64,000 nt of DNA from Clostridium sp. 28_17 (GTDB lineage Bacteria > Bacillota > Clostridia > TANB77 > CAG-508). A program made the translations under genes and the position numbers. The notes beneath the pieces are model-generated. The model saw only the letters and a program-made list of their open reading frames with translations. It was not told the DNA's origin and made no database searches. The stretch spans positions 31,948-95,947 of the forward strand of contig MNRS01000019.1 of assembly GCA_001916065.1 (NCBI GenBank), read 5' to 3'. Numbering within the stretch: the first letter of the stretch is position 1; each line of letters begins with the position of its first letter. Of the stretch, positions 1,415 through 16,384 are shown in pieces.

Positions 1415-2302
1415 ATGAATAACATGTTTTCTATTATTGAAATTGGGAGTAACAATACCAAAATACACATATACAAAGAAGAAAAATTGATATATGAAAA
1501 AACTATTACAATTGAATTTAAGAAAAATTACCAAATAAAAAAGCAAATAAATGAAGAAGACTTAAATAAATTGTATGAAGTAATAAAAAATGCATTAACT
1601 TATACAAACAATGTAAATATATATGGATGTAGTATATTTAGAAACATATCAAATGAAGAATTAGACGAAATTAATAAAAAAATATATGAAAAATTTAAGT
1701 TGGAAATTCAAGTTGTGTCACAAGAAGATGAAGCAAATTATACTGCTCTAGGATGTTATAAAAATATAGAATACAATGAGAATATATGTATTTTTATAGG
1801 AGGTGGAGGTTCAACTGAACTTATATTTGTAAAAAATAAAGAAGTTATAGCCAAAAAATATTATGATTTTGGAGTGGTAGACATTACAAATAAATTTGAA
1901 AGCCTAAAAAATGACATTCCAACATGTTCTTTCAGTGAAGTATACGATTATGTAGATGATATAATTGGAAAAATAGATATTAAAGCAGATATTTTAATAT
2001 TAGCTGGTGGTGACCATTTATATTGGTATAACAATGCAAGATATAATTTAATGGAAAATACTTTATATAAAAATGAAAAACAAAAATATATGCTAACAAT
2101 CGAAATGAGTGATAATTATGATAAAAATGCTTTAGTAACTTCATTAGATAGAATTAGAGCAAATAGTGATAATCCCAAATGGTTTGATGGTTCAAGAGCA
2201 ATGAAAGTGCTAACAAATTTAATATCACATAAAATAGAAAGCAAATATATTGTTCCAACAAAAATAAATATGGAAGATGGATTAAAGATGAAAAATAAGT
2301 AA
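1415..2302 (+). CDS. Ppx/GppA phosphatase family protein (ASKHA N-terminal domains only)
   Basis: IEIGSNNTK, YGCSIFRNISN, VVSQEDEANYTALG, IFIGGGGSTEL motifs typical of Ppx/GppA; paralog of 8314-9198. Confidence 0.7.
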   Translation: MNNMFSIIEIGSNNTKIHIYKEEKLIYEKTITIEFKKNYQIKKQINEEDLNKLYEVIKNALTYTNNVNIYGCSIFRNISNEELDEINKKIYEKFKLEIQVVSQEDEANYTALGCYKNIEYNENICIFIGGGGSTELIFVKNKEVIAKKYYDFGVVDITNKFESLKNDIPTCSFSEVYDYVDDIIGKIDIKADILILAGGDHLYWYNNARYNLMENTLYKNEKQKYMLTIEMSDNYDKNALVTSLDRIRANSDNPKWFDGSRAMKVLTNLISHKIESKYIVPTKINMEDGLKMKNK

Positions 2303-3533: not shown

Positions 3534-3797
3534 TTGTATAATATGTTAAAGGGAAGTTATACGGAGAGCGATACGCAATATGGTAATTATGGAAGCGATA
3601 AATATGAGTTTATTCCAGATTTATGTATAAATTATAAACTAACAACAGATAAGGAGATTTTTAAAATAGAGCATAGATGTATATTTGATTTAATATTATA
3701 CGATATATGCGCCAGAAGATTTTTAAATTATGAAATAAAAATATTTATAGGAGGTAAAAGATTTGAAAGAAGAATTAATATGCCAAATAACAGATAG
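3534..3797 (+). CDS. Hypothetical protein, possible C-terminal part of interrupted gene
   Basis: In frame with 3096-3482. Confidence 0.25.
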   Translation: MYNMLKGSYTESDTQYGNYGSDKYEFIPDLCINYKLTTDKEIFKIEHRCIFDLILYDICARRFLNYEIKIFIGGKRFERRINMPNNR

Positions 3798-4302
3798 AGA
3801 TATAGGAGAAGCACCTGTAGAAATGATAAATCCACAATTAAGAATAGGTGCAAGAGGAATAGTTATAAGAGAAGATGGAAAAATTGCAATATTCAATAAA
3901 AGTAACAAAAATGAGTATAAATTACCTGGTGGAGGATTAGAAGAAGAAGAAAAACCAGAAGAAGCATTTAAAAGAGAGGTATTAGAAGAAACTGGTTGTG
4001 AAATAGAGATTTTAAAATGCTTAGGAACAGCAGAAGAATATAAATCATTAAATAATTTTAAACAGATTTCTTATATTTTTGTAGGAAAAGTTTTAAAAGA
4101 TACTAAGCAATTACATGTGACACAAAAAGAAAAGGAAGAAGGAGCAAAATTACTATGGGAAACTCCTGAAAATGCAATAAAACTTATAACAAAGTCTTAC
4201 AATGAATTAATTGCTTCAAAATATAGTTCTGTATATTCTACAAAATTTGTTGTATTAAGAGATAGAAAAATTTTGGAAAGATGGATCGAAGATTATAAAT
4301 GA
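3763..4302 (+). CDS. NUDIX hydrolase
   Basis: Nudix box GGGLEEEEKPEEAFKREVLEETGCEI; TTG start after AGGAGG. Confidence 0.75.
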   Translation: MKEELICQITDRDIGEAPVEMINPQLRIGARGIVIREDGKIAIFNKSNKNEYKLPGGGLEEEEKPEEAFKREVLEETGCEIEILKCLGTAEEYKSLNNFKQISYIFVGKVLKDTKQLHVTQKEKEEGAKLLWETPENAIKLITKSYNELIASKYSSVYSTKFVVLRDRKILERWIEDYK

Positions 4303-4317
4303 AATTCGAGGTGTAAA

Positions 4318-4614
4318 ATGAACAAAATAACAGATAGATTTTTAAAACTATTTTATAAAATTTCACAAATACCAAGAGAATCTGGACATTAAAAAAGATT
4401 TGCTGATTTTTTAGAAATGTTTGCAAAAGAAAACAATTTAGAATATTATAAAGATAAGAGTAACAATGTTCTAATAAAAAAGAATGGAAAAATATATGGT
4501 GCTTTTTTAGATGAAAAAATGATTGCATGGATATTCTTATCAGTTTCAAATAGGATGAAAAATATTAAAAGATATATTTTATTAAAAAAATTAGGAGAAG
4601 GCGAAAATGAATAA
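4318..4614 (+). pseudogene. pepD: Remnant of aminoacyl-histidine dipeptidase (pepD) N-terminus with nonsense codon
   Basis: MNKITDRFLKLFYKISQIPRESGH*KRFADFLEMFAKENNLEYYKDKSNNVLIKK matches PepD N-terminus (IP..SGHEK..A.E..L....D..NVLIKKPA); GAA to TAA at 4390-4392; downstream diverges. Confidence 0.5.
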
Positions 4615-5218
4615 TACTATAAAACCAATAATATTTGATTTGGATGATGTAAGAAACAAGGCTGAAAACGGTGACAAATTTGCATGCTATATTTTAGGTA
4701 GAAGTTATGATAGTGAGGAAAACGGAGCAGAGCAAAGTTTTGAAAAAGCGATGTACTGGTATGAAAAAGGAAAAGAATTAGGAGATGCTCGTTGTGCATA
4801 CGGAGTTGGTGCTTGTTATTATTTTGGAGATGGAGTAGAACAAGATAAAGGAAAAGCAAAACAGATACATATTGAGGCTTATGAAACACTATTAGAGCTT
4901 ATAAATAAAGAAAAAGAAAATCTAAGAAGACAGGCATTTTCTAAATTTTGTTTAGGTGCTTATTACTATTTTGGATTTGGAAATATCGAAAAAGATGTAA
5001 ATAAAGCATTTGAATTAATACATGACTGTGCAATGCAAGGACATCTTCCAGCAATTTATGATTTAGGAGCAAATTTTTATTATAATGGAATTGGAACAGA
5101 GAAAAATTTGAAATTATCTGAATATTATTTAAAGATGGCAGCAAATGCAGGATTACCAAGAGCAAAAGCTAAATTTGAACAATACAAAAATACATATGAA
5201 AGTGAGATTGAAAAATAG
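4607..5218 (+). CDS. Sel1-like repeat (SLR/TPR-like) protein
   Basis: Repeated A..WY.KG.ELGDA...Y.LG..YY.G.GV..D units. Confidence 0.75.
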   Translation: MNNTIKPIIFDLDDVRNKAENGDKFACYILGRSYDSEENGAEQSFEKAMYWYEKGKELGDARCAYGVGACYYFGDGVEQDKGKAKQIHIEAYETLLELINKEKENLRRQAFSKFCLGAYYYFGFGNIEKDVNKAFELIHDCAMQGHLPAIYDLGANFYYNGIGTEKNLKLSEYYLKMAANAGLPRAKAKFEQYKNTYESEIEK

Positions 5219-5239
5219 TTAATTTAGGAGGTATAATAA

Positions 5240-5791
5240 ATGGAAAATTATTTTATAATACATGGCTCATTTGGGAGCCCTTTTGGAAACTGGTTTAGTT
5301 GGTTACAAGATTTTATATCAACAGACAACAAACAAGTATATGTACCAGATTTTCCAATAGGAGTAGGATATCAAAATTATGAAAATTGGAGTAAGTTATT
5401 AAAATATTATTTAGATTTAGAACTTATAAATGAAAATACAACAATTATAGGTCATAGTATAGCACCAATATTTATATCAAAATTTTTAGTTGAAAATAAA
5501 GTGAAAGTTAAGAAGTTAATATTCGTATGTGGATTTAATAATTATCTAGGAATTAATGAAGAATATGATAATGTTAATAAAACAATGTATTTTGATAACT
5601 TGCAAGATGTACAACAATATGCTAACGAAATTATTTGTTTCTATTCAGATAATGACCCATATGTGAGATATGAAGTAGAAAAAGAATTTGCGGATACAGT
5701 TGCGACAGAACAAGTTTTAATACATAATGGTGGTCATATCAATAGCGAAAGTGGATACGATACATTTGAAGAAATAGTAAGTTATTTATAA
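5240..5791 (+). CDS. Alpha/beta hydrolase, YdeN/RBBP9-like serine hydrolase family
   Basis: N-terminal IIHGSFGSP..NWF and GHSIA nucleophile elbow. Confidence 0.5.
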   Translation: MENYFIIHGSFGSPFGNWFSWLQDFISTDNKQVYVPDFPIGVGYQNYENWSKLLKYYLDLELINENTTIIGHSIAPIFISKFLVENKVKVKKLIFVCGFNNYLGINEEYDNVNKTMYFDNLQDVQQYANEIICFYSDNDPYVRYEVEKEFADTVATEQVLIHNGGHINSESGYDTFEEIVSYL

Positions 5792-5951
5792 GAACTTGTT
5801 AATAAGAAAAATTGAATGTTATTAATAAATATGATAAAAATATATAAGTATTATAATAGGAGGAAAAAATGGAAGGTAATAATATGAGTGGTAATATAGC
5901 TTTTTTAAGAGATACATTTTTAGATGCAGAAAACAATATTTAGAAGAACTA

Positions 5952-6185
5952 ATGAAACAACCTAAATATAAGGCATTTATAGAAAAACTAAACCAATATG
6001 GTTCAGAAGAACTATCTCTTGAGGCTATTAGAAGAATAAGTGATATTGAAACTGGTAAAGTTAATGTAGATGATTTAGAAAGAGTAGAAACAGAAATTAC
6101 ATTGTTATTAGCTTCAATTGAAGATTGTGTTAAAGAAAAAGTAAAAGAAAAAAACAAAGAATCTGATGAAGAACTAGAAATATAA
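5952..6185 (+). CDS. Hypothetical protein
   Basis: ORF only, acidic C-terminus. Confidence 0.25.
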   Translation: MKQPKYKAFIEKLNQYGSEELSLEAIRRISDIETGKVNVDDLERVETEITLLLASIEDCVKEKVKEKNKESDEELEI

Positions 6186-6219
6186 TCGGATTTTTTAAAT
6201 CATTATATTTAATTATAAT

Positions 6220-6414
6220 ATGCTTTATAAAATTAAGTCAAGGAAAATAAAGTTAGGAAAATTAAATTTTTACATTATAGATGATAATTATATTAAATAT
6301 TTAAGTCAATTTGATAAACATATTGCTTATAATAAAAATGAAAAAAGACCATATATAGGAGTTGTAATTATTGTTGAAGAGCATTGTTATTTTGTACTCC
6401 ACTTATCGCAATAA
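6220..6414 (+). pseudogene. Truncated type III toxin ToxN/AbiQ-like N-terminal fragment
   Basis: LNFYIIDDNYIKYLSQFDKHIAYNKNEKRPYIGVVIIVEEHCYFVLHLSQ resembles ToxN/AbiQ N-terminus (KFYTI..YI.YL..FD..V......RPY.G.V......Y.APL.S) but stops after 64 aa; no intact ToxI repeat array upstream. Confidence 0.4.
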
Positions 6415-6422
6415 AATTTAAA

Positions 6423-6453
6423 AGGAAGTGTTTGGAAAAATACTTCCTTTTTT
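6423..6453 (+). terminator. Rho-independent terminator
   Basis: GGAAGTGTTTGGAAAAATACTTCC hairpin followed by T7. Confidence 0.5.
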
Positions 6454-6611
6454 TAACTATTTATGATATAGTTATCATAAATAATCATTATATTAATATA
6501 CAAGAAAAAACTTAATACGAATACAGTTAGTTTTGATAAAAATAAAACTAAAAAATAATGATAATGCATAACAGATAAAATAAAAAAATACTAATAAAAG
6601 AAGGAATATAT

Positions 6612-7691
6612 ATGTTAAAAGACTTATGTTTTGAAATAATACAAACATGCCCTAATAAATGCAAATTTTGTTCTTCAAATTCCTCAAAAGACAAAACAAC
6701 AATAATAACAATAGAAGACTTTAAGAAAACAGTTATGTATTTTATTACTCATGGTGGAATTGGAGAAATATCAATTTCAGGAGGAGAACCTTTTTTACAT
6801 CCAGATTTATTCGAAATGATAAAGTTTTGTAAAGACAATGGAATTAGAACAGTTATATTCACCAGTGGAATAAAAAGAACACCAGCAATACCAGAAAAAA
6901 CAATAGAATATATAAAAAATAAATGTAAAAAAGATTTAGAAGAAATAGAAGAACATGAACCATGGAATGAAAGACTAAAAAGAAATGTGAAGGCGTATTA
7001 TAAAAGAATGATTAATCCAGGAGAATTTACTTCACTAACAAGGCAAGAACTAGAAAAAATAAAAGAATTAGGAGTAGATAAAATCGTATTTGATTGGCAA
7101 GCATTAGATGAAAATATTGATAATGAGTTAATGGGAAGAAAAGCATTAAATACATATCTAATAGATTCTTTGGTTAGAGCAAGCATTGTTGGATTAAATG
7201 TAGATGTTCATTTTATTCCTATGAAACCAAATTATAGACAATTTCCAGATATCATAGAATGTTTAGAAATTTCAAAAGTAAAAAATATAAGTATTTTAAA
7301 TTTTGTACCACAAGGTAGAGGACTAGAAAACAAACAAGACTTGATGTTAAATGAAACAGAGCTAAGAGAATTTAGTGAAATATTAAAAAAAGAAAAAGAA
7401 AAATATAGCGGTAACATAAGAATTGGAATTCCATTAAATGGAAAAATGTCTCATTTATGCACAGCAGGAACTGAAAAATTAGATATAAAATATGATGGAA
7501 CAATACTTCCATGTCCAGCATTTAAAGAAATGACCGTAGAAAAAATGGAAAAATATGGTATAAAATTACATAGTATATATGAGGATTTGGAAAAAGTAGT
7601 TTTACATGAGGGAAAAAGAAAATTACCATTATGTAAGCAAGTTTATGGATTTAATGGAGAATTGACAGAAAGTGAAGAGATAGAGTTTTAA
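6612..7691 (+). CDS. Radical SAM enzyme of unknown function
   Basis: CPNKCKFC (CX3CX2C) at residues 13-20, ISISGGEPFLH glycine-rich SAM motif, C-terminal Cys triad (C-x19-C-x44-C) suggestive of auxiliary cluster. Confidence 0.8.
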   Translation: MLKDLCFEIIQTCPNKCKFCSSNSSKDKTTIITIEDFKKTVMYFITHGGIGEISISGGEPFLHPDLFEMIKFCKDNGIRTVIFTSGIKRTPAIPEKTIEYIKNKCKKDLEEIEEHEPWNERLKRNVKAYYKRMINPGEFTSLTRQELEKIKELGVDKIVFDWQALDENIDNELMGRKALNTYLIDSLVRASIVGLNVDVHFIPMKPNYRQFPDIIECLEISKVKNISILNFVPQGRGLENKQDLMLNETELREFSEILKKEKEKYSGNIRIGIPLNGKMSHLCTAGTEKLDIKYDGTILPCPAFKEMTVEKMEKYGIKLHSIYEDLEKVVLHEGKRKLPLCKQVYGFNGELTESEEIEF

Positions 7692-7703
7692 GGAGGAATA
7701 TTT

Positions 7704-8234
7704 ATGAAAATATTAATAGGAACAAAAAATCCAGGAAAAATAGAAGGAGCAAAACAAGCATTTGAAAAATATTTTGATAAAGTAGAAATAGAAGGAATAC
7801 CAGTAGATTCAAATGTAGGAGACCAACCAATAAATGAAGAAATACTTCAAGGAGCAAAAAATAGAGTGGAAAATCTAAAAGAATATGCTTCAAAAAACAA
7901 TATAAAAGCAGACTTTTATATTTCAAGTGAAGCTGGTATCACAGATTCTTTAGGAGAATGGATTGACATAAATGCAGTAGTGGTGGAGGATTCAAAAGAA
8001 TTCCAAAGTATAGGAACAAGCCAAGGATTTCCAATTCCTGATAAATACATTGATGAAATTAAAGCAACAGAACTTGGAAAAGTTATGGACAAGATATTTG
8101 ATGGACAAGAATTAGGCAAAGGAAAAGGCGGAATAAGTTACTTAACAAAAAATGAAGTATCAAGAATTGATTTAACAAGAACTGCGTTCATTATGGCACT
8201 AACAAAACACATTAATGGAGACATATGGAGATAG
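7704..8234 (+). CDS. Inosine/xanthosine triphosphatase, YjjX (NTPase_I-T) family
   Basis: KILIGTKNPGKIEGAKQAF...SSEAGI...GEW layout resembles YjjX; start 12 nt after radical SAM stop with AGGAGG. Confidence 0.65.
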   Translation: MKILIGTKNPGKIEGAKQAFEKYFDKVEIEGIPVDSNVGDQPINEEILQGAKNRVENLKEYASKNNIKADFYISSEAGITDSLGEWIDINAVVVEDSKEFQSIGTSQGFPIPDKYIDEIKATELGKVMDKIFDGQELGKGKGGISYLTKNEVSRIDLTRTAFIMALTKHINGDIWR

Positions 8235-8313
8235 AAATTACATTTATTTTAATTCTTATAAAAAGAGAATTGAAAGATGTATAAGAGAAAAATATAAAAA
8301 AGGAGATAAATAA

Positions 8314-9198
8314 ATGAATAAAATAATTATAGAAGTAGGGTCAACATGTTTAAAAATAGACAATTATGATGGGAATAAAATAAAAAAATTAGATGGAATT
8401 ACAATACAATTCAAAAAACATTATAACGAAGACAAAAAGTTAAGAGAAAATGATGTGAAAGAACTAATAAAAAAAGTAAATGAATTAAAATCAATTTCTA
8501 AAGACATATATGTATGTGGAACAAGCATTTTCAGAACCTTAAATAAAGAAGAAAGAGAAAAATTCTTAAAAAGATTCAAAAATGAAACAGGATACGATTT
8601 CAACATAATATCTCAAGAAAGTGAAAATGAATTAACTGTATTAGGGGCAACCAGATTTGTAAAAGACAAAGTTTGTGTATTCATTGGTGGAGGAGGTTCT
8701 ACTGAAATTGCAATTTATGATAAGGAAATAAAAGAAAGTGTTAATACAAATATTGGAGTTATAGATGTAATGCAAGAATTTCCTGATTTAGCGGAAAATT
8801 ATGCAACAACTGATTTAGAAGAAGTAAAAGCATTTATTAAGGAAAGACTAAATTTACCAAAACAAAAAGCAGATATATTAATATTGGCAGGTGGTGGACA
8901 TGAAAAGTTTGCCAGAAACTCAGGAATAAAATATGAAGAAAATACTTTATACAAAGATAATTCAGAACCAATTATGATGGACATAGAAACAAGAAGAAAG
9001 GAAACAGAGAGATATTATAAGTCTATTTCTTTAGATGAGATAAGACAAAGAGTTAAAGACCCAGATTGGTGGTATGCTACAAGAGCAATGTCTGCATTTG
9101 CATTAGTGGTTGCAGAAGCAATAGATGCAAAATATATTGTTCCAACAGATATAGCAATGGCATACGGAATTATAAAAGATGGAGACAATAAAAAGTAA
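8314..9198 (+). CDS. Ppx/GppA phosphatase family protein (paralog)
   Basis: IEVGSTCLK, VCGTSIFR, ISQESENELTVLG, VFIGGGGSTEI motifs. Confidence 0.7.
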   Translation: MNKIIIEVGSTCLKIDNYDGNKIKKLDGITIQFKKHYNEDKKLRENDVKELIKKVNELKSISKDIYVCGTSIFRTLNKEEREKFLKRFKNETGYDFNIISQESENELTVLGATRFVKDKVCVFIGGGGSTEIAIYDKEIKESVNTNIGVIDVMQEFPDLAENYATTDLEEVKAFIKERLNLPKQKADILILAGGGHEKFARNSGIKYEENTLYKDNSEPIMMDIETRRKETERYYKSISLDEIRQRVKDPDWWYATRAMSAFALVVAEAIDAKYIVPTDIAMAYGIIKDGDNKK

Positions 9199-9218
9199 AT
9201 TTGAAAAAGGAGATAAAT

Positions 9219-9659
9219 ATGGTTGTTATAGCAGGGTGTTTAATCGTAAAAAATAATAAGATATTAATGGTAAAAGAAGCCAAAAAGAAATGTTATGGAC
9301 AATGGAACTTTCCAGCAGGCCATGTAGAGGAAAATGAATTGGTAACAGATGCAGCAATTAGAGAGGCTTATGAGGAAACAGGTTGCAAAGTAAAATTAAC
9401 AGGAGTATTGCCAATAAGTACAGCGTATTTAAAAGAAAAAGAAACGGCAATAATTATAAAATTCACAGCAGATGTTATTGAAGAAAATATCAAATTTAAT
9501 ACAAAAGAGATATTAGATGTAAAATGGTTAGATTTAGATAAAGTTAGAAATATGACAAAAGATGAACTAAGAGGATATGATACAGCACTTCAAGACATAA
9601 AAGACCTTGAGAATAAAAAAATATATCCATTAGATATTTTTAATAACAAAATATACTAG
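9219..9659 (+). CDS. NUDIX hydrolase
   Basis: Nudix box GHVEENELVTDAAIREAYEETGCKV; ATG at 9219 with AGGAG RBS. Confidence 0.75.
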   Translation: MVVIAGCLIVKNNKILMVKEAKKKCYGQWNFPAGHVEENELVTDAAIREAYEETGCKVKLTGVLPISTAYLKEKETAIIIKFTADVIEENIKFNTKEILDVKWLDLDKVRNMTKDELRGYDTALQDIKDLENKKIYPLDIFNNKIY

Positions 9660-9713
9660 ACAAAAATAATAAAATTATTAAATATAAAAACATAGATAAT
9701 TTGGAGATAAAAA

Positions 9714-10544
9714 ATGATATATCTAAAAACATTTAAATTAAGTGAAAGCAGAAGCACAGACCCCAATATATATCCATTTTGCATATTCAAAAATAAAGAA
9801 CCAAATATATTTGTATTCGACGACATCACAGTACTATATGGAAACAATGGGAGTGGAAAATCAACAATATTAAACATGATTGCACACAAATTAAACTTAA
9901 AAGGCAAAGAACGAAACTATTCTAGAATTGACGGATGGTGGCCATATTTTGAAAACTATTCAAATGAATGTGAATATGAACTAGGAGTAAACGAATATGG
10001 AAGTAGACTAACTAAAATTCCTACAAATAGTAGATATATAAAAAGCGAAGAGATATTATATGAAATTAGGAAAATACAACAAGATGCAGTCTTACAAGAA
10101 AGCATAGAAAGTACTCTAACCAAAGAAAGAGGAAGAAAAAATGCAAAAGATTTTTTAAAAACAAAAGAAGGTGGAAAACAATTTCCAAGATTTGCATTTG
10201 CGCAAGATAAATATTCAAATGGAGAAACAACATTACAAATATTAGAAGAGGATATTGAACCAGATAAATTATATTTATTAGATGAGCCAGAAGTGTCACT
10301 TTCACCACAAAATCAAGTAAAACTTGCAGAAAAAATAAATGAAATGGCAAGATATCTCGGAGTTCAATTCGTTATAGCAACTCATTCTCCATTTATGTTA
10401 GGAATATTAAATGCAAAAATATACAATTTAGACACAAAAGATTATAGAGTAGAAAAATGGAATGAACTTGAAAATGTAAGATATTTTTATAACTTTTTCA
10501 AAAGTAAAAAAGAAGAATTTGAAGATTATTATAAAAAGATATAA
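9714..10544 (+). CDS. Small ABC-type (AAA_21-like) P-loop ATPase
   Basis: Walker A GNNGSGKST, Walker B LYLLDEPE, H-loop ATHSP; 276 aa, no transmembrane or second domain. Confidence 0.7.
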   Translation: MIYLKTFKLSESRSTDPNIYPFCIFKNKEPNIFVFDDITVLYGNNGSGKSTILNMIAHKLNLKGKERNYSRIDGWWPYFENYSNECEYELGVNEYGSRLTKIPTNSRYIKSEEILYEIRKIQQDAVLQESIESTLTKERGRKNAKDFLKTKEGGKQFPRFAFAQDKYSNGETTLQILEEDIEPDKLYLLDEPEVSLSPQNQVKLAEKINEMARYLGVQFVIATHSPFMLGILNAKIYNLDTKDYRVEKWNELENVRYFYNFFKSKKEEFEDYYKKI

Positions 10545-10587
10545 AGAAGAAACAACAAGATAAATAAAAATAGAGGAGGATATATCT

Positions 10588-11166
10588 GTGAAAATAGGAA
10601 TAGATTTAGATGGTGTAGTTATAGATAGTGAAACAACATTCAGGACTTATGAAGAAATCTTTGATATAGATATTTTAAAAGGAAACAATCTAATAAATAA
10701 AAAAGAACCAAAATTTCAAGCTAGATATAATTGGACAAATGAGCAAGAAAAAGAATTTATTGAAAAATATTTCATGACAGTATCAAAAGAAAGTAATTTA
10801 ATGTCAGGATTTGTAGGCATATACAATTTATTAAAAGAACAAGGACACGAATTTGTCGTTATTACTGCAAGAGGTGGTTTTATAAAAGAAATGAAAGATG
10901 ATGCAATAAGATTATTAGAAGAAAATAATATTAAGTTTGATAAATATTATTGGAATGTTGAAGATAAATTAGAAATTTGTAAAAATGAAAAAGTAGACAT
11001 TATGATTGATGATGATTGGAAAATTATAAAAAGACTAGCAGATAATGAAGTAAAAACATTATATTTTAGGGATACAAACTTGATGAAATTAGAAGAAAAT
11101 CAGTACATCAAAGAAGTTAATAATTGGGGAGAAATTTATAGATATATAAAATGTAATAAAACATAG
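10588..11166 (+). CDS. HAD-superfamily 5'(3')-deoxyribonucleotidase-like protein
   Basis: GTG start after AGGAGG; N-terminal KIGIDLDGVV HAD motif I as in NT5C family. Confidence 0.55.
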   Translation: MKIGIDLDGVVIDSETTFRTYEEIFDIDILKGNNLINKKEPKFQARYNWTNEQEKEFIEKYFMTVSKESNLMSGFVGIYNLLKEQGHEFVVITARGGFIKEMKDDAIRLLEENNIKFDKYYWNVEDKLEICKNEKVDIMIDDDWKIIKRLADNEVKTLYFRDTNLMKLEENQYIKEVNNWGEIYRYIKCNKT

Positions 11167-11177
11167 AGGTGAAATAA

Positions 11178-11237
11178 ATGAATAAAATAATTAAAAATTT
11201 AGCAATGGCATATGGAATTATAGAAAATGAAAAATAA
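11178..11237 (+). pseudogene. Internally deleted remnant of a Ppx/GppA paralog (start fused to end)
   Basis: 19-codon ORF MNKIIKNLAMAYGIIENEK; RBS plus first 5 codons match start of 8314 gene and last 12 codons match its end (AMAYGIIKDGDNKK). Confidence 0.55.
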
Positions 11238-11271
11238 ATGACATATTATGAAAAAAAGAGAGGAAATATTC

Positions 11272-11685
11272 ATGTTAAAAATAAATTTAGGTGGAACTTG
11301 CGGTAATAGCAAGTGGAGAAATGAATTAATTGAAAAATTAAATAAAAAAATTGAATATAGAAATCCAGTTGTGAAAAACGGAACATGGAAATATAACAAA
11401 ACGATAAAATTAAAGAAAGAAAATGATATGAGAGAATGTGATTATTTAGTTTATGTAATAACACCAAGACAAAAAGGTTTTAGTTCAATTGCATCAGCCG
11501 TTGATTATAGCAATAAAGTTCCTAAAAAGGTTATATTTTGTATTTTAAAAGAATATGAAAATGAAAAATTTGAAGGTCACCAATTAGAAAGTATTAATTA
11601 TGTTGAAGATATAATAAAAAATAATGGTGGACTAATTCTAGAAAATTTAGATCAAATTGCTGAATTTTTAAATAATAAATGTTAA
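11272..11685 (+). CDS. Nucleoside 2-deoxyribosyltransferase-like (DNPH1/Rcl-like, SLOG-fold) protein
   Basis: Size and CDYLVYVITP....SSIASAVDY region resemble the flavodoxin-like deoxyribosyltransferase family; assignment tentative. Confidence 0.4.
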   Translation: MLKINLGGTCGNSKWRNELIEKLNKKIEYRNPVVKNGTWKYNKTIKLKKENDMRECDYLVYVITPRQKGFSSIASAVDYSNKVPKKVIFCILKEYENEKFEGHQLESINYVEDIIKNNGGLILENLDQIAEFLNNKC

Positions 11686-11705
11686 AAAATTTTAAGAGGA
11701 AAATT

Positions 11706-12311
11706 ATGATAAAAAGATATAAACAAAACGAAACAGATACATTAGCAAAAATACTAAAAAATGATGGAGTAATTAGTGTTCCAACAGACACGGTATATGG
11801 AGTATGTGCCAGAATAAACTCAAAAAAAGCACATGACAATTTAGTAAAAACAAAAAATAGACCAATTACAAAACCATTTCCAGTAATGTGTTCAGATGAA
11901 GAGCAAATAAAAAGTATAGCAATAGTAAATGAAAAGGCAGAAAAACTAATAAAAGAATTTATGCCAGGTCCAATAACACTAATTTTAGAAAAAAGACCAG
12001 AAGCACCAGAATATGTTAACAATGGAAAAACAACCATTGCAATACGAATGGCAACATCAAAAGTTGTAAAAGAATTAATTATAAAAACAGGATGTCCAAT
12101 ATTTATGAGCAGTGCCAATCAAAGTGGAGAGCCAACATGTACTAACCTAGATGAAATAGAAAATGAATGTCCAAATCTAGACGGAATGATGGAAGGTACT
12201 GTCAAATTTGGAAAAGGAAGTACAATAGTTGACTGTGTTTCAAAAGAATTAAAGATTTTAAGAGAGGGACCAATTACAATAGAACAAATTAGAGAAGTTC
12301 TTGAGGAATAA
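11706..12311 (+). CDS. tsaC: L-threonylcarbamoyladenylate synthase TsaC (YrdC/Sua5 family)
   Basis: KILKNDGVISVPTDTVYGVCAR...NRPITKPFPVM...IAIRM...P.FMSSANQSGEP. Confidence 0.8.
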   Translation: MIKRYKQNETDTLAKILKNDGVISVPTDTVYGVCARINSKKAHDNLVKTKNRPITKPFPVMCSDEEQIKSIAIVNEKAEKLIKEFMPGPITLILEKRPEAPEYVNNGKTTIAIRMATSKVVKELIIKTGCPIFMSSANQSGEPTCTNLDEIENECPNLDGMMEGTVKFGKGSTIVDCVSKELKILREGPITIEQIREVLEE

Positions 12312-12395
12312 GAGCCATAAAATTAAATATTAGTCGATAAAAATTTTAAAAGAAATGTTTAGTCAATATTAAGTTGTAGAGGAGATTTTATTATT

Positions 12396-13049
12396 GTGAA
12401 TAAAGAATATATAGAAATTAATAAAAACGCATATGAAATTTTAGCAAATGAGTATAATACTAGAAATTATAAAATTGGCTATGATTTTTGGAATAATATA
12501 TATGATGATTTGAATTTAAAAAATAAAGAGAATATTAAAATATTAGAAATTGGTCCAGGACATGGAAGAAATATTAAATTTTTTAAACAATATAATAATA
12601 AATTTAAAATAACTGCATTAGAAATTTCTAAAAATATGTGTAATATTATAAAAAAAGATCATCCAGACGTACAAATTATAAACGATAACATTTTGAATTA
12701 TAGTTTTGAAAATGACCAATTTGATATTATTCAAATGATAGCTGTTATCCATTTATTTCCAATAGAAGATGCTAAAATTGTATTAAAAAATGTTAAGAAA
12801 TCTTTAAAAGAAGATGGATATTTAATTATAGGAACTACTATTAATGAAAAAGATATGGAAGGTTATTATGAAAAAGAAGATTATAATATTAAAGTAAAAA
12901 GATTTAGACATAAGTATACTAAAGAAACTTATGAGAAATTATTAAATGAATGTGGATTTGAAATATATAAACCATATTTTGTTAATGAAAATGATAGAAA
13001 TAAATTATGGTATGATGCTGTATGTAAAAAAGTTAATAAAAAATATTAA
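12396..13049 (+). CDS. Class I SAM-dependent methyltransferase
   Basis: ILEIGPGHGRN motif I; acidic motif II. Confidence 0.7.
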   Translation: MNKEYIEINKNAYEILANEYNTRNYKIGYDFWNNIYDDLNLKNKENIKILEIGPGHGRNIKFFKQYNNKFKITALEISKNMCNIIKKDHPDVQIINDNILNYSFENDQFDIIQMIAVIHLFPIEDAKIVLKNVKKSLKEDGYLIIGTTINEKDMEGYYEKEDYNIKVKRFRHKYTKETYEKLLNECGFEIYKPYFVNENDRNKLWYDAVCKKVNKKY

Positions 13050-13284
13050 AAGTAGATTTATATGAAACAGTATATTGCTAAAAGAAGTCAGAAAAGTAAT
13101 AAAAAAAGGTGAAGTTGGAGTTACATTTATGAGCAAAAATAAAGTAAACAATAACTGATAGAAAGTACTTTTGAATTAAATCTTATTGGCTGATATCATA
13201 GAAAAATAAGCAATTCTACTAACAGTCGATTGCTAAAAAAGATATAAAGTGATAAGATACAAAAAATTCAAAGGAGGTTTTAAA

Positions 13285-15171
13285 ATGGACAACGAAAAAT
13301 TTGGAAAATTCATAAAAAAATTAAGAAAAGAAAAAGGAATAACACAAAAAGAATTAGGAGAAAAATTAAATATTACAGATAAAGCAATATCCAAATGGGA
13401 AAGAGGATTAAGTTTTCCAGATATAACAATGCTAAATATATTAGCAGAATTTTTTGAAATTGATGTATCAGAATTATTAAATGGAGAAAAAGGAGCAAAA
13501 AAAGATATTGATATAGATAAAGAAATTTCTGAAGCAATAGAAAAATATAAAAATATTGAAGAAAAAAGAAAAAAGAAAATTAACAAAACAAAGAAAACAA
13601 TAGGAGTAATATCAACTATTATATTAATTATTTCATTATTAATACAAATTGCATATTTATTTGTATTGAAAAGACATAATTATGAGTATGTAATTGATAT
13701 TTTAGAATACATAATTAATCAAATAATTATAATTTCAGCTACAATGAGTTTGATTTTATTAACTAAAAAAGAAAAAATTAAGAATATAATTATATATATT
13801 CTCTGTATAATGTTTTCTGTAATTAATATTTCATTTATGTGTAACAATGGATTCAAAAATAAATGTATAATAAGTTTTTCAAATGATTTTTCAAATGAAC
13901 TTGTTGTTAAAACAAATAAAAATACAGGAGCAATAAAAATATATAGAAACCAAAAATTCTTTTTATTTGCAAAAGAAAAAGAGCAACTAGATTACGAATT
14001 AGATGGAAAAATAAAAAAACAATGGCTAACAAATGATGTATGTGGAATAACTTATAAAGATAAAAATGGTATATTACAAGAATATGTTGTTACATATGGA
14101 GATAGAGGCAATGGAATATCATATTATTATGTAACATCAGCATTAATAGGCGATTGGCAAGTATTCACACAATATGGTAATCCGACTCAAATGTTAGTTG
14201 ATAGTAAAGGTATAACAATAAAAAAGAATGAAAAAAGTGAACTTTTTACCTATGAAAATTGCAAACAATATGGAACAACAGCATTGGTATTATATAAAAA
14301 TGATATACCTAAATATATAATTGCATTAGATAAAAATTGTGAAATTGATGAAAAAACATATATTATAAAAAAAGGTGGAACAATAATATTATCTGAAATT
14401 TCAATGGATAAAACAATTTCTGAATCATTATATTGTATGACATTTAAAGATGAAAAAGATTTAGGTAATTATAGTGTTGTAAGTGTTGCAAAAGATAGTT
14501 ATAAAATTCAAGATGGAATAATGTATATAAGTTTTGATGGAAAAAATACAGTAGAAGTACCTGGAGATTTTTCAAAAATGGTAGATAGTTATAATGAATA
14601 CAATTATCAAATATCAAACGAAAAAACAATTTTTTATTATATAAAAGATTCAAAAAGATATTTAGTTTATTCTGATGATATGGGAAATAATTGGACTACT
14701 GTAGAGATAGAAAATGAGTCTTCAATACAAAATATACATTTTATAAATTCAAATATAGGATTTATGCTTAAATTTGAAGATGTTGCAATGGGAATAGCAT
14801 TTGGTAAAATTAGCAAAACTGTTGATGGAGGAAAAACTTGGAAAGATATATATTTTGGAATGGGAGATGAAAAGAAAATATTTAAGACATCTAGTCAAAT
14901 AAAATTTATTAGTGAAAATATTGGCTTTTTAACAATGCCTTCTGCTGGAGGAGAAACTTCTGAAATGTATATTACAAAAGATGGAGGAAATAGTTTTAAT
15001 AAATTAGAAATTATAAATAGTGATATTTATGATTATTATAATTTGCCAACATTTGAAGATGGAGTATTAAGTATAAAAATAACACAAGGTTCAGACGGAG
15101 ATTATAATGGTGGGGATTATAAGGTCTATTATTCAAAAGACTATGGTGATAGTTGGAGCTTGGAAAAATGA
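13285..15171 (+). CDS. Membrane-anchored XRE-family HTH regulator with extracytoplasmic BNR/Asp-box (Ycf48-like) domain
   Basis: N-terminal HTH (GITQKELGEKLNITDKAISKWERG), three TM segments, C-terminal repeats DDMGNNWT, DGGKTW, DGGNSF, DYGDSW. Confidence 0.65.
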   Translation: MDNEKFGKFIKKLRKEKGITQKELGEKLNITDKAISKWERGLSFPDITMLNILAEFFEIDVSELLNGEKGAKKDIDIDKEISEAIEKYKNIEEKRKKKINKTKKTIGVISTIILIISLLIQIAYLFVLKRHNYEYVIDILEYIINQIIIISATMSLILLTKKEKIKNIIIYILCIMFSVINISFMCNNGFKNKCIISFSNDFSNELVVKTNKNTGAIKIYRNQKFFLFAKEKEQLDYELDGKIKKQWLTNDVCGITYKDKNGILQEYVVTYGDRGNGISYYYVTSALIGDWQVFTQYGNPTQMLVDSKGITIKKNEKSELFTYENCKQYGTTALVLYKNDIPKYIIALDKNCEIDEKTYIIKKGGTIILSEISMDKTISESLYCMTFKDEKDLGNYSVVSVAKDSYKIQDGIMYISFDGKNTVEVPGDFSKMVDSYNEYNYQISNEKTIFYYIKDSKRYLVYSDDMGNNWTTVEIENESSIQNIHFINSNIGFMLKFEDVAMGIAFGKISKTVDGGKTWKDIYFGMGDEKKIFKTSSQIKFISENIGFLTMPSAGGETSEMYITKDGGNSFNKLEIINSDIYDYYNLPTFEDGVLSIKITQGSDGDYNGGDYKVYYSKDYGDSWSLEK

Positions 15172-15764
15172 TTGATACAAATATTATTTTGCATTTTTTA
15201 ATTATCCAAGAGATAAACGAAAGTGATTTTGATAATATTTTTGCACAAATTATTGTTATGAAAGATTCTGATAGTTTAATAAAATATTATGATGTAATAA
15301 AAGGAGAAGAATTTATGTCTGACAGTAAAGTAAATTATACTTTGCCTGTATCAAAAGGTGGAATAGTTGATACATCAGAACCTTTTAAATATTCTTGTGT
15401 AATAGCTTATCTTCCAAATTATATGATGAGTAATGGCTATTTTAATGTTATAGTACAAAATGAAAAGATAAAAGTAAATAAAGAAACAGCATTAAACATA
15501 GCAAAATCTTATTTAAAGAATTTGAAATATAAAGGGTGTACTAACTTTTTGGATTTGAATTATATTAGAGTTTCAAAAGCTTATGAAAACAATTTCTTAA
15601 ACATAGAAGATAAAGAAAATCCAAAAGAAGATACTAATAAAAAATATACTGTTTGGAAAGTATTATCATATTCTGAAGAAGATCCTTGTACTTCTGCAAT
15701 TTTATATATTGATGCTAATACAGGGAAAATAATTGGTGGAAAAATAAATTATGCAACAGATTAA
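15168..15764 (+). CDS. Hypothetical protein, PepSY-like C-terminus
   Basis: ATGA overlap with upstream stop; YTVWKV...ILYIDANTGKIIGG. Confidence 0.35.
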   Translation: MIDTNIILHFLIIQEINESDFDNIFAQIIVMKDSDSLIKYYDVIKGEEFMSDSKVNYTLPVSKGGIVDTSEPFKYSCVIAYLPNYMMSNGYFNVIVQNEKIKVNKETALNIAKSYLKNLKYKGCTNFLDLNYIRVSKAYENNFLNIEDKENPKEDTNKKYTVWKVLSYSEEDPCTSAILYIDANTGKIIGGKINYATD

Positions 15765-16378: not shown

Positions 16379-16384
16379 AGAGTA

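What the first reader, a model, noticed from the sequence alone, without database searches (positions are those of the whole stretch)
6612..13049. Co-directional cluster of a radical SAM enzyme with seven or more nucleotide-phosphohydrolase/nucleoside-processing genes and a small P-loop ATPase
Over 6.4 kb every gene is on the + strand with short spacers, which suggests an operon. The order is radical SAM, YjjX-type ITPase/XTPase, Ppx/GppA-like, NUDIX, a 276-aa AAA_21-type ATPase, NT5C-like HAD nucleotidase, a deleted Ppx copy, a nucleoside 2-deoxyribosyltransferase/DNPH1-like protein, TsaC and a SAM methyltransferase. Taken together these could step-wise strip phosphates and the base from an NTP: triphosphatase, Nudix, 5'-nucleotidase, N-glycosidase/transferase. 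A radical SAM enzyme upstream could be generating an unusual nucleotide. That resembles either biosynthesis of a modified nucleoside/base or a nucleotide-depletion or chain-terminator type antiviral module, comparable to viperin-like or dNTP-depleting defence, with the AAA_21 ATPase as a possible sensor. The cluster sits in a region rich in gene remnants (toxN and pepD fragments), which is typical of accessory or defence islands. No described system with this composition is known to me.
Basis: partly seen in the sequence, partly recalled or inferred. Interest (0 to 1): 0.8.

Follow-up and report, generated by a model that had tools for sequence, protein, structure and literature searches.

The report
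Shuffling nucleotide-cleanup genes beside orphan radical SAM
The genes are real, but they are not a fixed multi-enzyme system: they are a fast-changing row of ordinary nucleotide "house-cleaning" genes next to an uncharacterised radical SAM enzyme, and only that enzyme's distant relatives sit in candidate anti-virus or DNA-modification operons.

Summary
All the genes exist with essentially the predicted domains, and the internally deleted Ppx copy is real. Co-directionality carries no weight, because 56 of 70 ORFs in the window are on the + strand. The cluster is not a conserved unit. In species whose radical SAM (rSAM) is 91-98% identical, the stretch between rSAM and TsaC differs gene by gene, and below about 86% identity none of these genes stays adjacent. 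No partner of the rSAM is conserved across 79 species, and no precursor peptide flanks it.

One thing is more than chance. In one clade of gut Clostridia, the rSAM is embedded among shuffled NUDIX, Ham1, YjjX, HD and Ppx genes; NUDIX is the top family directly flanking it (16 of 111 genes). The signal disappears under strict correction for relatedness and is absent from RF39-like Bacilli.

The rSAM is a SPASM/twitch-type enzyme below every curated family cut-off, and it is not a viperin. Its nearest outside relatives (27-43% identity) sit in conserved operons that this window lacks: TIR-Nmad2-HMUDK-rSAM-unk530-DUF2284, DCD-rSAM-UDG, and MazG-like fusions.

Verdict: a fluid house-cleaning and salvage neighbourhood plus an orphan rSAM. 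A nucleotide-directed role for the rSAM remains possible but unproven.

The parts
6420..6458 (+). Hairpin with a 14-bp stem followed by a U run. It is a probable intrinsic terminator that closes the upstream unit (the toxN remnant), so the rSAM starts a new transcription unit.
   Evidence: -15.8 kcal/mol, z = -4.8, 0 of 200 shuffles fold as well. Sequence.
6612..7691 (+). Radical SAM enzyme, 359 aa, SPASM/twitch type. It has CX3CX2C at C13/C17/C20, an SGGEP SAM motif, a helical insertion at about residues 95-134, and conserved C-terminal C283/C301/C341. It is an uncharacterised subfamily.
7704..8234 (+). YjjX-type inosine/xanthosine triphosphatase. It lies 12 nt after the rSAM stop codon and has its own GGAGG ribosome-binding site.
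   Evidence: PF01931, 152 bits; TIGR00258 137.3 bits, cut-off 117.1.
8239..8281 (+). Stable hairpin without a U tract, at the left edge of the ppxB-nudixB block that is absent from L004-L006.
   Evidence: -11.8 kcal/mol, z = -4.2; breakpoint at 8238/8268.
8314..9198 (+). Short Ppx/GppA-family phosphatase (ppxB, 294 aa). It is 34% identical to a second copy at 1415-2302.
   Evidence: PF02541, 62.9 bits; TIGR03706 62.5 bits, far below the 307 cut-off.
9201..9659 (+). NUDIX hydrolase with an intact Nudix box. The likely true start is the ATG at 9219 (146 aa).
   Evidence: PF00293, 78 bits; gene called as 146 aa in L001; shared RBS-like repeat.
9714..10544 (+). Stand-alone ABC/SMC-type P-loop ATPase, 276 aa, with Walker A GNNGSGKST and Walker B LYLLDEPE.
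   Evidence: AAA_15/AAA_21; only generic ATPase-core hits to AriA, PtuA and GajA; widespread family, no fixed partner.
10588..11166 (+). HAD-superfamily phosphatase-like protein, 192 aa (motifs DLDGV, ITAR, DDD). NT5C membership is not shown.
   Evidence: no hit; conserved motifs; weak HAD phosphatases, E = 0.012-0.07; phrog_420 at 1e-11; phrog_415 PNK at 9e-9.
11179..11238 (+). Remnant of a Ppx gene with about 820 bp of its interior deleted.
   Evidence: Both ends are identical to the intact gene at the same position in L008.
11248..11685 (+). Nucleoside 2-deoxyribosyltransferase-like protein (PF15891), 145 aa. The gene overlaps TsaC by 7 nt.
   Evidence: 33.9 bits, cut-off 30.
11679..12311 (+). 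L-threonylcarbamoyladenylate synthase TsaC/Sua5, a housekeeping enzyme of tRNA t6A synthesis.
   Evidence: TIGR00057, 176 bits, cut-off 123.2.
12396..13049 (+). Class I SAM-dependent methyltransferase of unassigned specificity.
   Evidence: Methyltransf_25/23/11; below all equivalog cut-offs.
1415..2302 (+). Context: second Ppx/GppA-like paralogue (ppxA).
3763..4302 (+). Context: second NUDIX hydrolase.
6220..6414 (+). Context: truncated toxN (N-terminal third only).

Best explanation
The 6.4-kb stretch is not a dedicated pathway or defence system. It is a lineage-specific, rapidly rearranging row of independent single-enzyme genes on the leading strand of an uncultured low-GC gut Clostridia genome.

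Most of these genes are nucleotide 'house-cleaning' or salvage enzymes:
- YjjX removes ITP and XTP.
- NUDIX hydrolyses aberrant nucleoside di- and triphosphate derivatives.
- The short Ppx/GppA-type enzyme and the HAD phosphatase remove phosphates.
- The DRT-like protein acts on the N-glycosidic bond.

They are interleaved with housekeeping TsaC, a methyltransferase and a stand-alone ABC-type ATPase. Genes enter and leave this row one at a time by insertions and deletions at gene boundaries. The Ppx remnant is one such event caught in the act.

The only stable element is the first gene, an orphan SPASM/twitch-type radical SAM enzyme. It probably starts its own transcript after an upstream terminator and is probably co-transcribed with at least YjjX.

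Shown: the gene identities, the flux, the lack of any conserved partner, and the local enrichment of nucleotide hydrolases.

Inferred: that each enzyme works on its own, and that the rSAM's proximity to NTP pyrophosphatases in one clade is mostly inherited neighbourhood and not an obligate functional coupling. The rSAM's substrate is unknown. A nucleotide or nucleic-acid substrate is the leading guess, because of what its relatives are linked to.
For: - Synteny across 79 species: there is no conserved neighbour. The best neighbour cluster occurs in 21 of 79 species, at positions -5 to +8.
- Close relatives differ gene by gene, with breakpoints at gene boundaries:
  - L004: rSAM-YjjX-ATPase-HAD-Ppx-TsaC
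  - L005 and L006: rSAM-YjjX-ATPase-(one unrelated gene in L005)-TsaC
  - L007: rSAM-TsaC
  - L008: rSAM-HAD-Ppx-DRT-TsaC
- The remnant equals the L008-type Ppx with its interior deleted.
- Co-directionality is background: 56 of 70 ORFs are on the + strand.
- YjjX and TsaC pass their equivalog cut-offs as ordinary housekeeping enzymes.
- No cluster protein matches a PADLOC defence model beyond generic cores.
- The ATPase family is widespread and sits in unrelated contexts.
- In 17 RF39-like Bacilli species the same rSAM has essentially no hydrolase neighbours (1.9%).
- The adjacency signal collapses when lineages are merged at >=80% identity (2.5 observed against 2.0 expected). This fits inherited neighbourhood within one clade.
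- A terminator-like hairpin lies upstream of the rSAM, and the gap to YjjX is 12 nt.
Against: - NTP pyrophosphatases are closer to the rSAM than other genes of the same loci. They are directly adjacent in 21 of 57 species, against 9.5 +/- 2.5 by permutation. With one representative per >=85% lineage the figures are 12.0 against 5.4 +/- 1.9.
- The adjacent enzyme belongs to different, analogous families (NUDIX, Ham1, YjjX) and lies on either side, a pattern often read as functional coupling.
- Distant relatives of the rSAM are fused to a MazG-like domain or sit in operons with DCD, UDG, HMUDK, Nmad and TIR genes. A nucleotide-centred function for the whole rSAM clade is therefore plausible.
- No terminator was detected inside the cluster, so co-transcription of all ten genes is not excluded.
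Confidence: 0.55

Rival explanations
1. Minimal nucleotide module. The rSAM modifies a (d)NTP or nucleoside, with viperin-like logic on a SPASM/twitch scaffold. An interchangeable flanking NTP pyrophosphatase (YjjX here; NUDIX or Ham1 elsewhere; MazG fused in distant relatives) either detoxifies the product for the host or processes it to the next intermediate. The other genes in the row are bystanders. The module could serve antiviral defence or synthesis of a modified base.
For: - Adjacency enrichment and replacement by analogous families (and 90 at the >=85% level).
- A 12-nt rSAM-YjjX junction.
- A MazG-like N-terminal fusion in seven protein clusters (Pfam 22.1 bits; the top three PDB profile hits, which I recall as MazG-type structures, E = 0.05-0.4; a conserved EExxE...ExxD motif).
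- DCD-rSAM-UDG, Panacea-rSAM, and Nmad3/TIR/SLATT contexts.
- A homologue with 51% identity sits between a Cas9 locus and a DpnII restriction-modification system.
- Twitch rSAMs that act on nucleotides or nucleosides (BlsE, MoaA) and viperin are among the top structural matches.
Against: - The association is absent in RF39-like Bacilli.
- It is not significant after merging lineages at >=80% identity.
- Intergenic gaps to the adjacent pyrophosphatase are ordinary: median 79 bp, against 115 for other neighbours.
- Many species have no such neighbour (36 of 57).
- The partnered relatives are only 27-43% identical. They carry a full SPASM domain and lack the insertion, and their partners (unk530, DUF2284, HMUDK, Nmad, TIR) are absent here.
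- The rSAM has no hit in 50,697 phage records and no PADLOC system match.
Confidence: 0.2
2. All ten genes form one operon-encoded pathway that makes an unusual nucleotide and then dismantles it step by step, with the ATPase as sensor.
For: - Short spacers and no internal terminator detected.
- The enzyme classes could in principle be ordered into a triphosphate, then monophosphate, then nucleoside, then base route.
- The cluster is identical in 24 contigs that carry the 100% identical rSAM.
Against: - The composition is not retained even at 91-98% rSAM identity.
- One component is a dead remnant.
- TsaC is an unrelated housekeeping enzyme.
- The ATPase occurs mostly elsewhere in the genome in relatives.
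- The NT5C assignment is unsupported.
Confidence: 0.04
3. The rSAM is a housekeeping RNA-modification or translation-related enzyme, or a cofactor maturase, unrelated to the hydrolases. It sits here only because this region also carries translation genes.
For: - The rSAM is retained as a single, partner-less gene in two classes of reduced-genome gut bacteria.
- It lies 1 to 5 ORFs downstream of rplM-rpsI in 7 of 17 RF39-like species.
- It lies downstream of a TRAM/tRNA-U5 methyltransferase in 20 Clostridia-group loci.
- TsaC and peptide deformylase recur nearby.
Against: - Translation genes are common in small genomes, so these neighbours are weak evidence.
- Relatives were found in only 225 of 185,579 species genomes, which is a narrow range for a core function.
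Confidence: 0.15
4. The rSAM is a RiPP (peptide) maturase like its best structural matches, SkfB and SuiB.
Against: - No conserved small ORF (12-75 aa) lies within 700 nt on either side in 79 species.
- No RiPP-recognition element, transporter or protease partner is conserved.
- All curated maturase models score far below their cut-offs.
Confidence: 0.05

Closest known systems
House-cleaning NTP pyrophosphatases (Nudix, Ham1/RdgB ITPase, YjjX ITPase/XTPase, MazG); concept recalled from Galperin et al. 2006, not re-read here
   Same: YjjX passes its equivalog cut-off. The NUDIX has an intact Nudix box. Ham1, HD/YfbR-like and further NUDIX genes recur in the same neighbourhood in relatives.
   Different: These enzymes are normally scattered singletons. 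Here up to about ten paralogues crowd into roughly 10 kb and are reshuffled between species.
SPASM/twitch radical SAM enzymes (SkfB, SuiB, PqqE, anSME; twitch enzymes BlsE and MoaA)
   Different: The protein scores below every curated model (PqqE 83 bits against a 381 cut-off). Only three C-terminal Cys are conserved. It has a unique helical insertion of about 40 residues. It has no peptide or pathway partner.
Prokaryotic viperins (pVips)
   Different: The sequence match covers only the shared rSAM core (residues 6-100): 41.6 bits against a cut-off of 180. This protein carries a Cys-rich C-terminal domain that viperins lack. There is no kinase partner.
Uncatalogued TIR-Nmad2-HMUDK-rSAM-unk530-DUF2284 operons (for example Parabacteroides distasonis NZ_OY725812.1, 45.6-50.8 kb)
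   Same: After its own subfamily, their rSAMs are the closest relatives of the window rSAM (27-43% identity, E down to 3e-57), closer than any curated family.
   Different: Those rSAMs have fixed partners: unk530 in 23 of 38 lineages and DUF2284 in 18 of 38. They also have a full SPASM domain and no insertion. None of the partners is in this window.
Phage thymidine-hypermodification clusters (5-HMUDK; M6 gp53 radical SAM isomerase; PMC8989533)
   Same: The sister clade is linked to an HMUDK_hel kinase-like gene, so a DNA-base chemistry is conceivable for the wider clade.
   Different: M6 gp53 is described as similar to spore-photoproduct lyase, which is a different rSAM family. No HMUDK or aGPT-Pplase gene occurs in this window.
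Defence systems built on AAA_15/AAA_21 ATPases (Septu PtuA, PARIS AriA, Gabija GajA, OLD)
   Same: They share the ABC/SMC-type ATPase core.
   Different: The window ATPase is 276 aa, against about 400-650 aa. It has no nuclease, Toprim or HNH partner, and it is found in unrelated contexts.

Membership tests
Conserved operon or 'system' (any kind) | The same genes stay linked across related genomes. | tested here: not met
   The composition differs among species with 91-98% identical rSAM, and no neighbour is conserved across 79 species.
Prokaryotic viperin (NF038283 / PADLOC pVip) | Full-length match above the curated cut-off. | tested here: not met
   41.6 bits against a cut-off of 180, residues 7-100 only; pVip models match residues 6-99 only.
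Prokaryotic viperin | Viperin-type C-terminal nucleotide-binding extension without an auxiliary Fe-S domain. | tested here: not met
   conserved C283/C301/C341; the best structural matches are SPASM/twitch enzymes.
SPASM/twitch radical SAM | CX3CX2C plus a GGE SAM-binding core. | tested here: met
   C13/C17/C20; SGGEP at 56-60; PF04055, 68.7 bits.
SPASM/twitch radical SAM | C-terminal Cys-rich auxiliary-cluster domain. | tested here: inconclusive
   Three conserved Cys and the SkfB/SuiB-like fold support it. However, Pfam SPASM is not hit in the window protein, and cluster binding cannot be shown in silico.
PqqE (TIGR02109) and other curated rSAM maturases | Score above the equivalog cut-off. 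| tested here: not met
   PqqE 83.2 bits against 381. All 61 matching NCBIfam models score far below their cut-offs.
RiPP maturase system | An adjacent conserved precursor peptide. | tested here: not met
   no small-ORF cluster is shared beyond five close relatives.
YjjX ITPase/XTPase (TIGR00258) | Equivalog cut-off. | tested here: met
   137.3 bits against 117.1.
TsaC/Sua5 (TIGR00057) | Equivalog cut-off. | tested here: met
   176 bits against 123.2.
Ppx/GppA | Pfam gathering score, and the exopolyphosphatase equivalog. | tested here: inconclusive
   PF02541 62.9 bits against 27, which is met, covering profile positions 20-184 of 285. TIGR03706 62.5 bits against 307, which is not met. The protein is a family member, but its substrate is unassigned.
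NT5C 5'(3')-deoxyribonucleotidase | Match to the family model. | tested here: not met
   no Pfam or NCBIfam hit at E <= 0.01; only weak generic HAD phosphatases. HAD motifs are present.
Nuc_deoxyri_tr2 (PF15891) | Pfam gathering score. | tested here: met
   33.9 bits against 30, which is marginal. There is no PDB relative by sequence.
AAA_15/21 defence ATPases (PtuA, AriA, GajA, OLD) | A partner nuclease or effector, or a fused effector domain. | tested here: not met
   only the core matches, the protein is 276 aa, and no conserved partner exists.
dNTP-depletion defence (dCTP deaminase, dGTPase) | Presence of a DCD-type or dGTPase-type effector. | tested here: not met
   none in the cluster. 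DCD occurs only beside distant rSAM relatives.
Integron-like cassette array | Structured attC-like repeats at cassette junctions. | tested here: not met
   only similarity around the ribosome-binding sites. No integrase gene was seen among the annotated ORFs of 1-18 kb.
TIR-Nmad2-HMUDK-rSAM-unk530-DUF2284 module | Presence of the unk530 and/or DUF2284 partner next to the rSAM. | tested here: not met
   absent from the window and from all 79 loci of the window-type subfamily.

The most novel reading that the evidence does not exclude
The window-type protein is the chromosomal, partner-less branch of a previously undescribed clade of SPASM/twitch radical SAM enzymes that act on nucleotides or on DNA bases. 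In the sister branches this activity is embedded in mobile conflict operons (TIR-Nmad2-HMUDK-rSAM-unk530-DUF2284; DCD-rSAM-UDG; MazG-like fusions; Panacea-rSAM). In these gut Clostridia, the rSAM's aberrant nucleotide product is kept in check, or processed, by whichever house-cleaning NTP pyrophosphatase lies next to it. That would make it a second, structurally unrelated radical SAM route to modified nucleotides in immunity, alongside the viperins.
Probability: 0.15. Interest if true: 0.75.

Novelty: new member of a known kind. Interest (0 to 1): 0.35.

Why it matters
As originally framed, a new multi-enzyme antiviral or nucleoside-biosynthetic system, the finding does not hold up, and it should not be catalogued as a system.

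Two by-products are useful:
1. The work defines an uncharacterised radical SAM subfamily. It is found in at least 225 species genomes, mostly uncultured gut Clostridia and RF39-like Bacilli. Its nearest relatives belong to conserved operons with nucleotide- or DNA-modification hallmarks that PADLOC v2 does not hold and that I could not find described in the searchable literature. One example is in a cultured Parabacteroides distasonis strain and is directly testable.
2. It documents an unusually dense and fluid concentration of nucleotide-sanitation paralogues in reduced-genome gut anaerobes. This may reflect dependence on scavenged nucleotides.

Tried and rejected
- **Co-directionality as operon evidence.** Rejected, because it is a replichore-wide property.
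- **Rfam and tRNA scans of the window.** Nothing found.
- **Consensus promoter and terminator scan.** Uninformative in this AT-rich DNA: 74 promoter-like sites against 88 expected.
- **attC-like or other junction repeats that could explain the cassette-like flux.** None found.
- **Viperin membership.** Rejected.
- **Sequence search of PDB for the HAD-like and DRT-like proteins.** No hit, or noise only. A profile search for the HAD-like protein found only weak HAD phosphatases.
- **Viral origin of the rSAM.** There was one IMG/VR hit, and it turned out to be a bacterial Cas9 and restriction-modification island. There was no hit in 50,697 phage genomes.
- **Literature searches for Nmad3, for rSAM with DCD and UDG, and for DUF2284/Nmad2.** No description of such systems was found. 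The M6 gp53 rSAM of thymidine hypermodification belongs to a different, SPL-like family.
- **A precursor peptide next to the rSAM.** None found.
- **The fold search.** It could not discriminate peptide from nucleotide substrates.
- **The pepD remnant claim.** It could not be confirmed.

Full report
**Observation**

The window is low-GC DNA (about 26%) with a strongly positive GC skew over nearly its whole length, and 56 of 70 non-overlapping ORFs are on the + strand. Exact and near-exact copies of the radical SAM (rSAM) protein occur in human-gut metagenome contigs and in MAGs labelled uncultured Clostridium or Clostridia.

Between 6612 and 13049 there are nine intact + strand ORFs and one remnant, with gaps of -7 to 84 nt.
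- Radical_SAM
- NTPase_I-T, passing the TIGR00258 ITPase/XTPase equivalog cut-off
- Ppx-GppA
- NUDIX
- an AAA_15/AAA_21 ABC-type ATPase
- Nuc_deoxyri_tr2 (marginal)
- TsaC, passing TIGR00057
- a class I methyltransferase

The 192-aa protein called 'NT5C-like' has no Pfam or NCBIfam hit. It shows HAD motifs and only weak similarity to HAD phosphatases and to a phage PNK-type family. It is a HAD-superfamily phosphatase, but NT5C membership is not shown.

The 'deleted Ppx copy' is real. The ORF at 11179-11238 joins the first 16 nt and the last 45 nt or so of a Ppx gene, and that gene is intact at exactly this position in L004 and L008. The toxN remnant is confirmed; the pepD remnant is not. Inside the coordinates there are five intact nucleotide-processing genes plus the remnant, not 'seven or more'.

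**Is it more than chance?**

Co-directionality is not, because it is a property of the replichore. The concentration of nucleotide hydrolases is. HMMs for nine such families hit only genes in 1-11.2 kb of the window, and none of the 50 or so ORFs in the remaining 53 kb.

**Is it a conserved unit? No.**

I fetched 80 loci from distinct species that carry a relative of the rSAM (53-98% identity) and mapped all the window proteins onto them. Species with 91-98% identical rSAM show these arrangements:
- L004: rSAM-YjjX-ATPase-HAD-Ppx-TsaC
- L005: rSAM-YjjX-ATPase-(unrelated gene)-TsaC
- L006: rSAM-YjjX-ATPase-TsaC-methyltransferase
- L007: rSAM-TsaC
- L008: rSAM-HAD-Ppx-DRT-TsaC

DNA comparison puts the breakpoints at gene boundaries. 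Below about 86% identity none of the cluster genes remains adjacent.

An unbiased clustering of all ORFs within ±8 genes in 79 species found no conserved partner. The commonest neighbour cluster (a NUDIX) occurs in 21 of 79 species, at positions from -5 to +8. No attC-like or other structured junction repeats exist.

At strain level, contigs with a 100% identical rSAM keep the cluster but swap the upstream 2.4-6.6 kb segment for a different one carrying Fic, YaaC and DUF6933 (L003). Fic and large serine recombinases recur upstream in other species. The region is therefore variable and accessory, and the rSAM is its only stable gene.

**What recurs**

Gene order is not conserved, but the kind of neighbour is, within the 'Clostridia' group. 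The recurring families are NUDIX (two clusters), Ham1 ITPase (two clusters), YjjX, short Ppx/GppA, His-phosphatase, HD/YfbR-like and the HAD-like protein.
- They make up 20.6% of genes at ±1-3 against 9.3% at ±6-8 (Fisher p = 3e-4).
- An NTP pyrophosphatase is directly adjacent on the same strand in 21 of 57 species, against 9.5 ± 2.5 under within-locus permutation (0 of 5000 permutations reach it).
- A Pfam census of all 111 directly flanking genes, independent of my clustering, puts NUDIX first with 16. Ham1 has 4, HD_3/YfbR-like 3, HAD 3, NTPase_I-T 2 and His_Phos_1 2.

There are four caveats:
- In 17 RF39-like Bacilli species the same rSAM has no such neighbours (1.9%). In 7 of them it lies 1 to 5 ORFs downstream of rplM-rpsI.
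- Intergenic gaps to the adjacent pyrophosphatase are ordinary: median 79 bp.
- With one representative per lineage the signal holds at ≥85% identity (12.0 against 5.4 ± 1.9). It vanishes at ≥80% single linkage (2.5 against 2.0), because the positive species fall into one broad clade. Inherited neighbourhood within that clade can explain much of the signal.
- The hydrolase families were defined from these same neighbourhoods. The position-permutation tests are fair in that respect, but genome-wide background frequencies could not be measured.

**The radical SAM enzyme**

- It has CX3CX2C at residues 13-20, an SGGEP motif, and three further conserved cysteines (C283, C301, C341).
- All curated models score far below their cut-offs: PqqE 83 bits against 381, and prokaryotic viperin 41.6 against 180. 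The viperin and PADLOC pVip matches cover only the generic core, residues 6-100.
- A confident AlphaFold model (pLDDT 89.5, pTM 0.85) shows a helical insertion at about residues 95-134.
- No conserved small ORF flanks it in any direction, which argues against a RiPP maturase with an adjacent precursor.
- The subfamily is narrow: 95 clusters at E ≤ 1e-30 among 1.84 billion representatives.

**Relatives of the rSAM**

Beyond its own subfamily, the nearest sequences are rSAM/SPASM proteins of about 320-350 aa at 27-43% identity. They are closer than any curated family. Unlike the window type, they have fixed partners.
- **38 dereplicated metagenomic lineages.** The rSAM is flanked by an unannotated protein of about 530 aa (23 of 38) and by DUF2284 (18 of 38). 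It is preceded by HMUDK_hel (a '5-hmdU DNA kinase' helical domain), Nmad2 or an HTH-ImmA/IrrE gene, with ThsB-type TIR and TIR-SLOG genes alongside.
- **A cultured example.** A complete Parabacteroides distasonis replicon carries hyp166-TIR-hyp213-'nucleotide kinase domain'-rSAM-hyp521 as overlapping genes next to an integrase.
- **A further branch.** It shows DCD-rSAM/SPASM-UDG on one strand, a UDG::Panacea fusion plus DCD, and Panacea-rSAM with Nmad3, ThsB-TIR, SLATT and an integrase. It also has an N-terminal MazG-like fusion beside Nmad3 and an MmeI-like restriction-modification gene. The MazG-like call rests on a borderline Pfam score, on profile hits to 2q73, 2q5z and 1vmg at E = 0.05-0.4 (I recall these as MazG-type structures), and on a conserved EExxE...ExxD motif.
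- **The one 'viral' contig.** It carries a 51%-identical homologue and is really a Cas9/DpnII/IS110 island.

Apart from ThsB, none of the sister-clade partners has a PADLOC v2 model. The searchable literature did not describe these operons. The DefensePredictor paper lists MazG, dUTPase, NMAD and UDG domains as predicted but unvalidated defence components (PMC13092281). The M6 gp53 rSAM of thymidine hypermodification is SPL-like, so it belongs to another family (PMC8989533).

These contexts make a nucleotide- or DNA-directed chemistry plausible for the wider clade. None of the partners occurs in the window or in any of the 79 window-type loci.

**The ATPase**

It has intact Walker A and B motifs and matches only the generic core of defence ATPases. 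It belongs to a very large, well-conserved family of about 270 aa.

Its contexts elsewhere are unrelated. One is MatE/4HBT/DUF1848, and in another it stands alone near a recombinase. In a third it follows a YjjX fragment and an overlapping MazG gene near transposase genes. Nothing supports a sensor role. Its recurrence beside YjjX or MazG is noted but unexplained.

**Transcription signals**

A 14-bp hairpin plus a U run at 6420-6458 (z = -4.8) probably terminates the toxN-remnant unit, so the rSAM heads a new unit. YjjX follows after 12 nt with its own Shine-Dalgarno sequence.

A second stable hairpin without a U tract (8239-8281, z = -4.2) lies exactly at the left edge of the ppxB-nudixB block that L004-L006 lack. 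No canonical terminator was found inside the cluster, so co-transcription can be neither shown nor excluded.

**Conclusion**

- **Best explanation (confidence about 0.55).** This is a fluid, lineage-specific neighbourhood of independently acting nucleotide-sanitation and salvage genes and housekeeping genes, placed downstream of an orphan SPASM/twitch rSAM of unknown substrate. It is not a defined system.
- **Main rival (about 0.2).** A minimal module in which the rSAM makes or alters a nucleotide, and an interchangeable adjacent NTP pyrophosphatase handles the product.
- **Other rivals.** Housekeeping RNA-modification or cofactor roles (about 0.15) and a RiPP role (about 0.05) remain possible for the rSAM.

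Interest is moderate to low for the cluster as described. The uncharacterised rSAM clade and its partnered sister operons are the parts worth following up.

Noticed in passing
L097-L176 (metagenome loci); L177 = Parabacteroides distasonis NZ_OY725812.1, 45648-50806: A conserved module, uncatalogued in PADLOC v2, built around a sister-clade rSAM/SPASM. The order is [HTH-ImmA/IrrE or HMUDK_hel or Nmad2]-rSAM-unknown ~530-aa protein-DUF2284, often with ThsB-type TIR and TIR-SLOG genes. It is a tight six-gene operon next to an integrase in a cultured strain.
   Followed up: partly
L091 4748-7986; L089 4959-8026; L094 4392-8759; L086 7001-9135: A more distant rSAM/SPASM branch sits in DCD-rSAM-UDG arrangements. 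It also occurs beside a UDG::SocA_Panacea fusion, directly after a Panacea-domain gene (with Nmad3, ThsB-TIR and SLATT nearby), or fused to a MazG-like N-terminal domain next to Nmad3 and an MmeI-like restriction-modification gene.
   Followed up: partly
L084 (IMGVR_UViG_3300029782_000304), 520-17019: A contig filed as viral is a bacterial defence island: Cas1-Cas9, PRiA4_ORF3, SDR, the rSAM homologue (51% identity), an unknown 596-aa protein, DpnII restriction enzyme and methylases, and IS110.
   Followed up: yes
window 2359-6574 versus L003 3364-9962: Strain-level replacement. Contigs with a 100% identical rSAM carry a completely different segment between ppxA and the rSAM (a 652-aa protein, YaaC, DUF6933 and Fic, in place of SDR, NUDIX, Sel1, Ser-hydrolase and the toxN remnant). 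This marks an insertion hotspot just upstream of the rSAM.
   Followed up: partly
window 1415-2302, 8314-9198, 11179-11238: Three Ppx/GppA-like copies lie within 10 kb. ppxA and ppxB are 34% identical. The third is a remnant of the L008-type gene, which is itself only 85% identical in DNA to ppxB. So one copy was lost while another sits 2 kb upstream in a block (ppxB-nudixB) that close relatives lack.
   Followed up: yes
window 8239-8281: A significantly stable hairpin (z = -4.2) without a U tract lies exactly at the left junction of the ppxB-nudixB block. It could be an attenuator or processing site, or a scar of the insertion.
   Followed up: no
L011, L018, L020, L043 (HAD-like); L034, L035 (YjjX); several loci (Ser_hydrolase): The small hydrolase genes are more conserved between species than the rSAM beside them. 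The HAD-like protein is 86-91% identical where the rSAM is 72-83%. YjjX is 84% where the rSAM is 73%. This hints at stronger constraint or at exchange of these genes between lineages.
   Followed up: no
L181 4445-5813 and L182 784-2152: A homologue of the 276-aa ATPase (76% identity) follows a 61-aa YjjX fragment and an overlapping 119-aa MazG gene, near Bro-N, TnpV and rve genes. With the YjjX-ATPase pairing in L004-L006, this suggests an unexplained link between this ATPase family and NTP pyrophosphatases.
   Followed up: no
window 650-1117 (-) and L001 4040-4598: The patatin-like phospholipase gene upstream is split into two ORFs (147 + 44 aa as called in L001), so it is probably a pseudogene. 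Together with the toxN and Ppx remnants, this points to ongoing gene decay in this region.
   Followed up: no
window 13249-15171: A 640-aa protein combines an N-terminal Cro/C1-type HTH, predicted membrane-spanning stretches and C-terminal BNR/sortilin-like repeats. It lies directly downstream of the cluster, and L008 keeps it next to TsaC. Its function is unknown.
   Followed up: no
L096 5258-8017: The closest partnered relative examined (P0148, 43% identity) lies among many small unannotated ORFs, next to a second radical SAM gene and a cREC_REC-domain gene. This looks like a phage or mobile-element context.
   Followed up: no
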